Shown here one piece after another: positions 35,044-38,085 of a stretch of 64,000 bases of DNA. The DNA lies in the IMG/VR virus record IMGVR_UViG_3300042377_000720. The stretch is one strand, 5' to 3'. The DNA comes from an uncultured virus (IMG/VR IMGVR_UViG_3300042377_000720) (Duplodnaviria > Heunggongvirae > Uroviricota > Caudoviricetes). Below the pieces are notes generated by a model. That model saw only the letters and a program-made list of their open reading frames with translations, was not told the DNA's origin and made no database searches. A program made the translations under genes and the position numbers. Position 1 is the first letter of the stretch; each line of letters opens with the position of its first letter.

Positions 35044-37473
35044 ATGAAAGTAAAAAAGAGAGATGGCTCCTTAGAGGAGATGAGATATGACAAAATAACA
35101 AGGAGAATACAACATTTTTGTGATGATTTGAATATTGAATTTATTGACCCAACATTAGTTACATTAAAAGTAACACAGGGTATATATGACGGTATTTCAA
35201 CTGTGGAGTTGGATACATTGGCGGCAGAGACAGCCGCATCATTAGTAACCTCACATCCCGATTATGCGAAATTGGCCGGAAGACTTGCGGTTTCTAATTT
35301 ACATAAAACAACACCTAAAAAATTCTCTCAGTGTATTAAGGAGTTGCATCATTTCATTGAACCTAAAACAAATAAGGAATCCTCTTTGATTGATGATAAT
35401 GTTGCTAAATTTGTTCAACAAAACAAAGAAGTTTTAGATGGTGCTATTACCCAAGAAAGAGATTTTGATTTCGATTATTTTGGATTTAAAACATTGGAAC
35501 GTTCTTATCTATTGAAAATCAATAATCGTATTGTTGAAAGACCACAATATATGTACATGAGAGTTGCCGTTGGTATTTGTAATGGTGATTTAGAAATGGC
35601 GTTAAGAATATATGACGACCTTTCATTACATTTCTACACTCACGCAACTCCTACATTATTTAATGCCGGTACTCGTAGAGCACAAATGTCATCTTGTTTC
35701 TTAATCGGTAACAAAGGTGATGATATTGATGGTTTATTTGACACAATTAAAGATGTTGCTAAAATTTCTAAATGGGCCGGAGGTATCGGATTACACGTTC
35801 ATGATGTGAGAGCAAAGGGTTCTTACATTAGAGGAACAGGTGGAGAATCTGATGGTCTTCTTCCTATGATGAAAACATATAATGAAGTTGCTCGTTGGAT
35901 TAATCAAGGTGGTAAAAGAAAAGGTTCTTTTGCCGTTTATCTTGAACCATGGCATGCTGACGTTTTTGAATTTATTGATTTGAGAAAGAATCATGGTAAA
36001 GAAGAAATGAGAGCAAGAGATTTATTCTTGGCAATGTGGACTCCTGATTTATTCATGGAGAGAGTTGAGAAAGATTTGGATTGGTCTTTGTTCTCACCTG
36101 ATGAGGCGCCGGGTTTATCTGATATATACGATACACCTGAAGATAAATCTTTTACTCGTTTATATGAACAATACGAACAAGAAGGTAGGGCTCGTAAAAC
36201 TGTTAAGGCAAGAAAATTAATGGATGCAATTCTAACTGCACAAATTGAAACAGGAACGCCTTACATGTTATATAAAGACCCAGCAAACTACAAATCAAAT
36301 CAAAAGAACTTAGGTACGATTAAATCTTCAAACTTATGTACGGAGATTATCGAATACTCAAGTCCCGAAGAACAGGCGGTTTGTAACTTAGCGTCAATTG
36401 CATTACCAAAATACATCTTGGATAATGAATTCAATCATGATTTATTATATGATTACACATACCAAGTTGTAAAGAACTTAAACAACGTTATCGATTTGAA
36501 CTTCTATCCTACTGAGGAAACAAAACGTTCAAATATGAGACACAGACCGGTTGGTTTAGGAGTTCAAGGTTTAGCCGATGTATTTTGTATGTTAAATCTA
36601 CCTTTCGAAAGTGACGCGGCAGATGTTCTACAAACGGAGATTTTTGAAACCATTTATTTTGCGGCATTGACTTCTTCAAAAGATTTGGCAAAAGAAAACG
36701 GAGCGTATGAAACATTCCAAGGGTCACCTTTATCTGAAGGTATCTTCCAATATGAAATGTGGGGTAAAACAGATAAAGACACAAGTAAGAAATGGGATTG
36801 GAAGTCTTTAAGAAAAGAAGTTGTTAAGTACGGTGTAAGAAACTCATTGTTAGTAGCACCTATGCCGACAGCATCGACAGCACAAATTTTAGGAAATAAC
36901 GAAGCGTTTGAACCATTTACATCTAATCTATTTTCAAGAAGAACATTAGGTGGTGAATTCGTGGTAGTTAATAAACACCTTGTTAAAACATTACTTGAAA
37001 AGGGTATTTGGTCAGACGAAATTAAAAAGAAACTTATCATGGAGAATGGTTCGGTTCAAAATATCCCTGAAATACCAACTGAGGTAAAAGAAGTTTACAA
37101 AACCGTATGGGAAATGTCTCAAAAGAGAATTTTATCTATGGCGGCGAATCGTTCTATTTACATCGACCAATCTCAGTCGTTGAATTTATTCATCGCAAAT
37201 GCAAGTAAACAGAAAGTATTAGCGGCACACCTTTACGGATGGAAACTCGGTCTTAAAACCGGTATGTACTATCTAAGAACCAAATCCGCGGTTGACCCAC
37301 TTAAAGGGTTAGGTATCGACATGTCCACAACAAAACCAAATAGTGAAACCCAAGAGGTTCCAAGTACAAATAACCTTATCCAAGATAATTCAGAAGAAAT
37401 GAAATTAATGGAAATGGTTATGAGTTCAAGACCAACTGATTCACCGTTTGAATGTGAGGGATGTGGTTCCTAA
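35044..37473 (+). CDS. nrdA: ribonucleotide reductase class Ia alpha subunit with ATP-cone
   Basis: VKKRDG ATP-cone, ATPTLFN, SSCFL, SNLCTEI, PMPTAST, KTGMYY, C-terminal CEGCGS. Confidence 0.97.
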   Translation: MKVKKRDGSLEEMRYDKITRRIQHFCDDLNIEFIDPTLVTLKVTQGIYDGISTVELDTLAAETAASLVTSHPDYAKLAGRLAVSNLHKTTPKKFSQCIKELHHFIEPKTNKESSLIDDNVAKFVQQNKEVLDGAITQERDFDFDYFGFKTLERSYLLKINNRIVERPQYMYMRVAVGICNGDLEMALRIYDDLSLHFYTHATPTLFNAGTRRAQMSSCFLIGNKGDDIDGLFDTIKDVAKISKWAGGIGLHVHDVRAKGSYIRGTGGESDGLLPMMKTYNEVARWINQGGKRKGSFAVYLEPWHADVFEFIDLRKNHGKEEMRARDLFLAMWTPDLFMERVEKDLDWSLFSPDEAPGLSDIYDTPEDKSFTRLYEQYEQEGRARKTVKARKLMDAILTAQIETGTPYMLYKDPANYKSNQKNLGTIKSSNLCTEIIEYSSPEEQAVCNLASIALPKYILDNEFNHDLLYDYTYQVVKNLNNVIDLNFYPTEETKRSNMRHRPVGLGVQGLADVFCMLNLPFESDAADVLQTEIFETIYFAALTSSKDLAKENGAYETFQGSPLSEGIFQYEMWGKTDKDTSKKWDWKSLRKEVVKYGVRNSLLVAPMPTASTAQILGNNEAFEPFTSNLFSRRTLGGEFVVVNKHLVKTLLEKGIWSDEIKKKLIMENGSVQNIPEIPTEVKEVYKTVWEMSQKRILSMAANRSIYIDQSQSLNLFIANASKQKVLAAHLYGWKLGLKTGMYYLRTKSAVDPLKGLGIDMSTTKPNSETQEVPSTNNLIQDNSEEMKLMEMVMSSRPTDSPFECEGCGS

Positions 37474-37475
37474 AA

Positions 37476-37559
37476 AAAGTGGGTGGCTCCCTTAATGGTT
37501 CGCGGCCGACCGCAAGCATCTATTTTGTTTAGTTATACAGGGGGCGAAAAACTAAACAA
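37476..37559 (+). ncRNA. candidate pseudoknotted structured RNA
   Basis: GC-rich island with three stems and a 7-bp loop pairing GCTCCCT/AGGGGGC; family not recognised. Confidence 0.5.
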
Positions 37560-37568
37560 CATATACTC

Positions 37569-37598
37569 AATCCCAATCTGAAAAGGTTGGGATTTTTT
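37569..37598 (+). terminator. intrinsic terminator
   Basis: AATCCCAATC-TGAAAA-GGTTGGGATT followed by a T run. Confidence 0.75.
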
Positions 37599-37635: not shown

Positions 37636-38085
37636 ATGGCGACATATGGTATAGACTTCCCATTTAGACAAAGTTCAAAAGGTAGTTTCCTGAACATGAC
37701 GGAAATACCTGAAAGGGAAATTAGAGCAAATTTGATTCATTTAATTTTAACCAGAAGGGGTACTAGATATTATATGCCCGATTTTGGGACAAGATTATAT
37801 GAGTTCATCTTTGAACCAAATGATGCAGTTACGTTTCAACTTATTGAAGATGAGATAAGAACCACAGTAAAGAAGTACATACCTAATTTGGATATTAAAT
37901 CAATTAGAATAACCCCTGCGGATATGGACCCCGAGCAACCTTCAAGTGTGAGTGAACAAGATGATGAAAGATTATTTAGAGTATCAGATAATTCAACAAA
38001 ACCATACACTGCCAAGGTTAGAATCGATTACGACATTAATAATGAACCATTTAGTTCGTCAGACTTTATAATTATTAACATATAA
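37636..38085 (+). CDS. baseplate wedge/sheath initiator (gp25/GPW-like)
   Basis: GIDFPF, LILTRRGTRYYMPDFGTRLYEFIFEP; TATTTAT 4 nt before the ATG at 37636. Confidence 0.9.
   Translation: MATYGIDFPFRQSSKGSFLNMTEIPEREIRANLIHLILTRRGTRYYMPDFGTRLYEFIFEPNDAVTFQLIEDEIRTTVKKYIPNLDIKSIRITPADMDPEQPSSVSEQDDERLFRVSDNSTKPYTAKVRIDYDINNEPFSSSDFIIINI

What the first reader, a model, noticed from the sequence alone, without database searches (positions are those of the whole stretch)
37476..37598. Compact pseudoknotted RNA immediately after the nrdA stop codon
Seen: an 84-nt GC-rich island in AT-rich DNA. P1 is AGTGGGTG (37478-85) with CATCTATT (37517-24), including G-U pairs. It encloses the hairpin GCGG-CCGA-CCGC (37502-13). 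A perfect 10-bp stem TTGTTTAGTT (37525-34)/AACTAAACAA (37550-59) has a loop AGGGGGC (37539-45) that can pair with GCTCCCT (37486-92). A separate terminator follows, so termination does not explain the structure. The G-U pairs favour the + strand. Inference: an unrecognised ncRNA, such as a self-cleaving ribozyme, a nuclease-blocking element or a nucleotide-sensing aptamer tied to the RNR transcript.
Basis: partly seen in the sequence, partly recalled or inferred. Interest (0 to 1): 0.72.

Follow-up and report, generated by a model that had tools for sequence, protein, structure and literature searches.

The report
Double-knotted phage RNA that hitchhikes
The small folded RNA behind this lake phage's ribonucleotide reductase gene is real and belongs to an uncatalogued family of about 70-letter double-knotted RNAs, usually one copy per phage genome, that also sits between tRNAs and even inside tmRNA and RNase P RNA, which suggests it does its own job wherever it is made in quantity rather than controlling the gene next to it.

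Summary
The structure is confirmed and extended. Covariation supports P1, P2 and the 7-bp pseudoknot and reveals a second, 2-bp pseudoknot (208 of 209 cores at each pair). There is no Rfam match, and none of my paper searches describes it; Fremin 2023's sequence files could not be searched. The tie to nrdA fails. Among 236 distinct copies, 41 follow nrdA, 39 precede tmRNA-like genes, 26 flank tRNAs, 19 lie inside tmRNA and 4 inside RNase P RNA. Of 36 records with a match, 35 hold one copy, and related phages that carry it elsewhere have an empty nrdA slot. A second subtype has coupled core changes, and two related phages carry both subtypes. Best reading (0.5): an autonomous, trans-acting binding RNA, either a nucleotide sponge or a protein decoy, riding on abundant transcripts. 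Rivals: self-cleaving ribozyme (0.2), cis stabiliser (0.13). Function is untested. This scan had not reported the motif; one other window holds a look-alike that was reported for other genes.

The parts
35044..37473 (+). nrdA, class Ia ribonucleotide reductase large subunit with ATP cone; the carrier transcript here, not a required partner
   Evidence: Pfam PF02867, PF00317, PF03477
37478..37559 (+). Whole RNA module, hinged form (type A); conserved core 37481-37549
37478..37485 (+). P1 5' strand (conserved part 37481-85); U37484 is one of three positions that change together in subtype II
37486..37492 (+). Pseudoknot PK1 5' strand, continuous with P1
   Evidence: 100% of cells paired, 2 pairs with two-sided change
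37493..37498 (+). Joining strand: conserved YAA, then the 5' strand of mini-pseudoknot PK2 (G37497, G37498); an extra hairpin is inserted here in some copies
37499..37515 (+). P2, 6 bp with bulged C37501; tetraloop 37506-09, whose first two bases form PK2
   Evidence: 6 of 6 pairs show two-sided change; PK2 208 of 209 at each pair
37517..37524 (+). P1 3' strand (conserved part 37517-21); A37518 is the second coupled position
37525..37559 (+). P3 (37525-34/37550-59; sequence free, pairing kept) with loop AUAC (37535-38; C37538 is the third coupled position), PK1 3' strand (37539-45) and GAAA (37546-49)
37569..37598 (+). Intrinsic terminator, independent of the module
   Evidence: also present in relatives without the module
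37636..38085 (+). gp25-like baseplate wedge gene downstream; no evidence that the module controls it
   Evidence: Pfam PF04965

Best explanation
An autonomous RNA module of about 70 nt that acts in trans by binding something in a tightly built pocket, and needs only to be abundant and stable. Shown: two subdomains (P1/P2 and a loop carrying AUAC and GAAA) locked by a 7-bp pseudoknot, plus a 2-bp pseudoknot; interchangeable junction forms (hinged, or closed by a terminal stem with an optional fourth hairpin); about one copy per genome; many carriers, including operon 3' ends, tRNA arrays, tmRNA leaders, the PK2 site of tmRNA and the P3 or P12 site of RNase P RNA. Inferred: the near-invariant core forms a binding pocket where P1 and PK1 stack. 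The three coupled positions (U-A-C in subtype I, G-G/A-U in subtype II) line that pocket and may set what it binds. The phage uses it to soak up a host nucleotide signal or to occupy a host protein during infection. I split the target about evenly between a small nucleotide ligand and a protein. In this phage nrdA mRNA is only the vehicle.
For: Context spread over 236 distinct copies. tmRNA and RNase P matches span the motif. One copy in the 311-kb own record, in 35 of 36 records with a match and in 17 of 20. Reciprocal empty slots: this phage's tmRNA leader lacks it, and G001, G005, G011 and G022 lack it between RNR and gp25 while holding it elsewhere. 58 of 236 copies lie just behind a TAnnTTTG box, 37 of them at 13 nt (reading the box as a Bacteroidota promoter is recalled), so there the RNA would start the transcript. 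All 12 hits with AUAU have G instead of U in P1. The only records with two full copies, G009 and G485, hold one subtype II copy plus a high-scoring second copy. The topology matches the ZTP aptamer's two subdomains joined by a pseudoknot (PMC10687018, passages). The same single-copy, any-context argument was used for the trans-acting raiA RNA (PMC10861870, passages).
Against: No ligand, partner or expression level was measured. The coupled positions could equally be a purely structural base triple, and the 12 subtype II hits come from only about six lineages (judged by eye); G009 and G485 are near relatives. The invariance of the core is partly imposed by my search patterns. The module is dispensable: lost cleanly at least twice at the nrdA slot, and four records of 202-288 kb hold only a degenerate 24-bit copy. 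Degenerate nrdA copies keep P1, five PK1 pairs and P3 while losing P2/PK2, which hints at a residual cis role. No shared protein partner was found; only TROVE was tested (3 weak partial hits in 24).
Confidence: 0.5

Rival explanations
1. A new class of small self-cleaving ribozyme that processes multi-tRNA transcripts, trims leaders and mRNA ends, and nicks tmRNA and RNase P RNA into two-piece forms held together by pairing.
For: Nested double pseudoknot with an optional fourth hairpin, as in HDV-like ribozymes (PMC10879173, passages). Context independence; 11 of 18 copies with a tRNA within 60 nt upstream start 4-10 nt behind it. The PK2 crossing has no linker nucleotide, so the backbone may be strained (inference).
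Against: No circularly permuted copy in viral contigs (0 hits). The tRNA spacing is not fixed (4-41 nt). The C before PK1 is replaced by U or A in 11 of 209 cores. About one copy per genome. It sits inside RNAs that normally work uncut. No known ribozyme family was found beside it at Rfam's gathering scores in the 40 loci.
Confidence: 0.2
2. A cis-acting stabiliser or exonuclease road-block that protects the transcript it sits in.
For: Very compact knot. Often at transcript ends: between stop codon and terminator here, or first behind a promoter-like box. Degenerate nrdA copies keep the outer knot in 11 of 11 examined.
Against: Copies in the middle of tmRNA and RNase P RNA have no end to protect. 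A cis tag should occur on several transcripts per genome, but it is single-copy. The inner P2/PK2 domain and the subtype switch are not explained.
Confidence: 0.13
3. A trans-acting catalyst, or a building block that pairs between molecules (PK1 or PK2 formed intermolecularly) to make dimers or rings.
For: PK2 needs a zero-nucleotide crossing of a 6-bp stem, which is hard within one molecule (inference). Single-copy gene behaviour.
Against: PK2 is only 2-3 bp. Insertion in large scaffolds would hinder rings. No substrate-guide segment varies with the host.
Confidence: 0.08
4. A nucleotide-sensing cis regulator of the RNR transcript or of read-through into the baseplate genes.
For: It lies 4 nt after the nrdA stop, and it keeps this slot when the upstream RNR is of another type (phrog_367 in L086 and L400).
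Against: 195 of 236 distinct copies were not classed as directly following an nrdA stop. The terminator is separate and persists without the module. 16 of 80 relatives lack it cleanly.
Confidence: 0.04
5. A selfish or functionless passenger spread by neighbouring homing endonucleases.
For: Patchy presence; several copies lie near GIY-YIG/HNH-type genes (L098, L337, L347, L361).
Against: Single copy per genome, strict covariation, and near-identical cores in a lake phage, tRNA arrays and CPR bacteria.
Confidence: 0.05

Closest known systems
ZTP (pfl) riboswitch aptamer (PMC10687018, passages read)
   Same: Two subdomains, P1/P2 and P3, joined by a pseudoknot between J1/2 and L3, with conserved loop bases flanking the knot.
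   Different: No Rfam match even at E 10. The knot is 7 bp, there is a second pseudoknot and a closed four-way form. There is no expression platform and no link to purine genes.
HDV-like and theta ribozymes (PMC10879173, passages read)
   Same: Nested double pseudoknot, dispensable P4, phage origin, next to tRNAs.
   Different: Inner stem of 6 bp whose loop pairs upstream, not with the strand after P1 (HDV layout recalled). No invariant C at the start of J4/2, no fixed distance to the tRNA end, a conserved GAAA 3' of the knot.
raiA motif RNA (PMC10861870, passages read)
   Same: Highly conserved, two pseudoknots, single copy in varied contexts, proposed to act in trans; an earlier scan note reports one in a phage tRNA array (unchecked).
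   Different: No Rfam match. This module has far fewer helices (raiA has six major paired regions; its length of about 200 nt is recalled), is mainly viral, and is found inside other ncRNAs.
Orphan phage RNAs in tRNA clusters (wcaG, GOLLD, ROOL; recalled) and the candidate list of Fremin et al. 2023 (PMC10690425)
   Same: Phage-borne structured RNAs of unknown function near tRNAs.
   Different: Only one chance-level wcaG match (20 bits against a gathering score of 42). Whether the motif is one of Fremin's 10,006 unnamed candidates is open, because the files with sequences could not be searched.
tmRNA PK2
   Same: The module occupies the PK2 position between the tag-frame helix and PK3 in some phage tmRNAs, and Rfam's model aligns its PK1 strands to PK2's first helix.
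   Different: It has extra domains and a fixed sequence, and most copies are outside tmRNA. An origin from PK2 is neither shown nor excluded.

Membership tests
Any Rfam 15 family | Covariance-model score at or above the gathering threshold | tested here: not met
   0 hits in the window; 9 sub-threshold matches at E<=10, none a ribozyme or ligand-binding riboswitch; in 16 other carrier loci only an enclosing tmRNA and three chance-level matches
HDV-like / theta ribozyme | Nested double pseudoknot | tested here: met
   PK1 and PK2 by covariation, but PK2 joins different strands than P1.1 (P1.1 layout recalled)
HDV-like / theta ribozyme | Invariant catalytic C at the first position of J4/2 | tested here: not met
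   The equivalent strand is AUAC with C last; U in 8 and A in 3 of 209 cores
HDV-like / theta ribozyme | P1 begins at the cleavage site directly behind the tRNA 3' end | tested here: not met
   Spacing 4-41 nt in 18 copies; P1 extends by a variable length
HDV-like / theta ribozyme | Mg2+-dependent self-scission | not testable with these tools
   RNA runs were low-depth contigs only
ZTP (pfl) riboswitch | P1/P2 and P3 subdomains joined by a J1/2-L3 pseudoknot | tested here: met
   Type A form, about 47 of 110 cores by a rough classifier
ZTP (pfl) riboswitch | Conserved ZMP-pocket sequence (Rfam match) | tested here: not met
Riboswitch (any) | Lies upstream of a consistent gene class with an overlapping expression platform | tested here: not met
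   Downstream genes are inconsistent; the terminator here is separate and persists without the module
Hammerhead / twister | Catalytic core sequence and natural circular permutations | tested here: not met
   No Rfam match; 0 permuted copies with the pattern
Y RNA / YrlA | Co-occurs with Ro60 (TROVE) | tested here: not met
   3 of 24 carriers have weak partial TROVE matches; none in the own record
Exonuclease-resistant RNA (xrRNA) | Blocks a processive exonuclease at a fixed position | not testable with these tools
   Needs a decay assay; position after a stop codon fits, positions inside tmRNA and RNase P RNA do not
Recoding signal (read-through or frameshift) | Conserved open frame or slippery site across the nrdA stop | tested here: not met
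   The stop-to-motif distance takes all three frames among 15 relatives, and most frames close early

The most novel reading that the evidence does not exclude
It is a free-standing aptamer that phages and CPR bacteria use as an RNA sponge for a host nucleotide signal (an alarmone or an anti-phage second messenger). They raise its dose by grafting it onto their most abundant stable RNAs, and the C-to-U subtype switch changes the preferred base from guanine to adenine. My searches found no natural RNA described in that role.
Probability: 0.2. Interest if true: 0.93.

Novelty: categorically new. Interest (0 to 1): 0.8.

Why it matters
Whatever it does, this is a compact, strongly covarying RNA family outside Rfam, with two natural subtypes, and it has repeatedly been grafted into tmRNA and RNase P RNA, much as engineers display aptamers on scaffolds. 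At about 70 nt it can be tested in days. A ligand would define a new aptamer class and possibly an RNA-based counter-defence. Cleavage would define a new ribozyme class and a route to two-piece tmRNA and RNase P RNA. It also bears on the open question of what the non-tRNA RNAs in phage tRNA clusters are for. The 'categorically new' rating refers to the fold and the hitchhiking habit; the function is not shown.

Tried and rejected
Single-sequence folding did not separate the strands. Rfam: nothing. Sequenced phage collection: only the uncultured huge phage LR756504.1 holds the core; the closed form found nothing in phages or plasmids. Circular permutation: 0 hits. Read-through or frameshift: not conserved. 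Ro60 partner: not supported. RNA runs: four runs of low-depth contigs; one contig spans 37359-37634 across the module and terminator, and two others stop at 37478 and 37537. This says nothing on cleavage, strand or level, and DNA may be present. Rows dropped as chance or mis-parsed: L202, L205, L229, L247, L259, L287 (no 3' half), L457, L494, L495, and four rows. The PK2 tallies and the terminator pair list were out of register and are not used. The type A/B classifier is rough (9 of 110 unassigned, some misassigned). Paper searches found no description of the motif. In PMC10690425 the two zip supplements and three larger files could not be searched; the other four held none of the motif strings. 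bioRxiv supplements are closed. R-scape and RNA 3D modelling were not available.

Full report
Setting. The window lies in a 311-kb virus record with 25 tRNAs and a tmRNA. nrdA (35044-37473) is followed by the element, an intrinsic terminator (37569-98) and a gp25-like baseplate gene. A Bacteroidota host is suggested by a TAnnTTTG box before its tmRNA (the meaning of the box is recalled).

Observation. Folding alone is weak evidence (z -2.3 on +, -2.7 on -). Rfam has no match at gathering scores in the window and only chance-level matches locally.

Homologues. An nrdA search kept the best 80 of 562 related loci. A covariance model built from 65 diverse copies scores 33 of these 80 at 60 bits or more, 28 at 19-38 bits and 19 not at all; by eye 16 are cleanly empty, with the terminator kept. 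An nrdA tree of 39 rows places the empty slots in at least two places among carriers. Model searches found it sporadically in CPR bacteria: 4 of 151, 2 of 151, 2 of 151, 4 of 101 and 2 of 101 genomes, each count including the seed genome and one of the first four a probable chance hit. In a planctomycete order it was in 1 of 151, the seed alone. CPR copies lie among ordinary bacterial genes, often near tRNAs.

Structure. On the 65-sequence alignment, 98.8% of cells pair for P1, PK1 and P2, with 123 two-sided changes against 28.5 shuffled, and slid controls reach at most 58%. Relatedness inflates such tests, and four P1 pairs and four PK1 pairs never vary, partly because the patterns fixed them. 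A second pseudoknot joins the two bases before P2 to the first two loop bases: 208 of 209 distinct cores pair at each position, with A-U 110, C-G 50, G-C 45 and U-A 2 at one of them (shuffled mean 105, maximum 122). The outer junction comes in a hinged form, as here, and a form closed by a terminal stem with an optional fourth hairpin. No circular permutation was found.

Contexts. Of 236 distinct copies, 41 directly follow nrdA, 39 lie just upstream of a tmRNA-like 5' end, 26 are within 60 nt and 12 within 400 nt of a same-strand tRNA or tmRNA, 19 are inside tmRNA (3 more by pattern only), 4 inside RNase P RNA, and 92 elsewhere; none had an opposite-strand tRNA gene within 400 nt. Two further tmRNA-internal copies appear. 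In tmRNA the module takes the PK2 position behind the tag-frame helix. In RNase P RNA it replaces P12 in L468 (162 bits) and, read by eye, P3 in L402, L424 and L429 (below gathering score, E 4e-12 to 6e-23). Passages of the 2025 tmRNA database paper (PMC11915505) mention group I introns in tmRNA and a tRNA in an intervening sequence, not this insert.

Copy number and movement. The own record has one copy. Of 39 records searched, chosen as carriers or nrdA relatives, 36 match and 35 of these once; in a second set 17 of 20 match once. Phages sharing this phage's baseplate gene (39-75% identity) but carrying the module elsewhere have none between RNR and gp25 (G001, G005, G011, G022), and this phage has none before its tmRNA. 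Position changes while copy number stays near one, which is how a gene behaves and not how a cis tag does (inference). Most records are incomplete, so absence is not proven.

Subtypes. Targeted scans found 17 hits with A-U in place of the P1 G-U pair and a subtype II in which the P1 U-A pair becomes G-G (once G-A) while AUAC becomes AUAU: 10 of 10 hits selected on P1 have AUAU, and 12 of 12 selected on AUAU have the G. Subtype II also occurs inside tmRNA. G009 and G485 each carry a subtype II copy and a second, high-scoring copy, read as subtype I in G009. This is either a base triple or a specificity switch like that of purine riboswitches (recalled). Three copies have AUAA.

Mechanism. Shown: a conserved double-pseudoknot RNA, independent of context, about one copy per genome, in two subtypes. 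Inferred: a binding pocket, action in trans, and carriers chosen for abundance and stability. I give 0.5 to a trans-acting binder (nucleotide sponge or protein decoy), 0.2 to self-cleavage, 0.13 to cis stabilisation, 0.08 to a trans catalyst or multimer, 0.05 to a selfish passenger and 0.04 to an nrdA sensor. Against my reading: the module is dispensable, degenerate nrdA copies keep the outer knot in 11 of 11 examined, and no partner or expression data were obtained.

Comparison and novelty. It is built like a ZTP aptamer (PMC10687018, passages) and, in nesting, like HDV/theta ribozymes (PMC10879173, passages), and it is distributed like raiA RNA (PMC10861870, passages), but it fails the membership tests for each. 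I read the abstract and introduction of PMC10085705 and part 2 of 5 of PMC10690425; neither part describes it. Searches found no description; other papers were seen as listings only. The sequence-bearing supplements of PMC10690425 could not be searched, so the motif may be among its unnamed candidates. Earlier scan notes did not report it.

Verdict. Real, new as a family, function open; interest 0.8.

Noticed in passing
window 37474-37583: The frame after the nrdA stop stays open for 36 codons and starts with a run resembling a slippery site; neither is conserved in relatives.
   Followed up: yes
L034, L041, L046, L053-L056, L058, L062-L064, just after nrdA: Degenerate copies keep P1, five PK1 pairs and P3 but scramble the inner domain; possibly a reduced element with a cis role.
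   Followed up: partly
L086 3-1337, L138, L400, L458: Within this phage clade the RNR gene at this locus is swapped for a different RNR type (phrog_367 in L086 and L400), followed by a short gap before the same slot.
   Followed up: partly
L468 614-1056 (-): The phage RNase P RNA also carries a 74-nt insert in P3, besides the module in P12.
   Followed up: no
L402, L424, L429, L390: Divergent RNase P RNAs below Rfam's gathering score, three of them next to tRNA genes.
   Followed up: partly
L115 1358-1475, L092 1096-1214, L426 107-231: tRNA-like genes of about 120 nt with an insert in the anticodon arm, near the module.
   Followed up: no
L484 1040-1267: A group I intron lies about 180 nt behind a subtype II copy, possibly within a tmRNA.
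   Followed up: no
L483 1305-1607 (-): A weak manA RNA match (29 bits) upstream of a tmRNA that holds subtype II.
   Followed up: no
L204 near 2810-2980: A tRNA-Val followed by a repeat of its 3' end, like an integration scar, lies just before the module in a CPR genome.
   Followed up: no
L038, just after nrdA: The terminator and the start of the gp25 gene appear deleted, or misassembled, behind the degenerate module.
   Followed up: no
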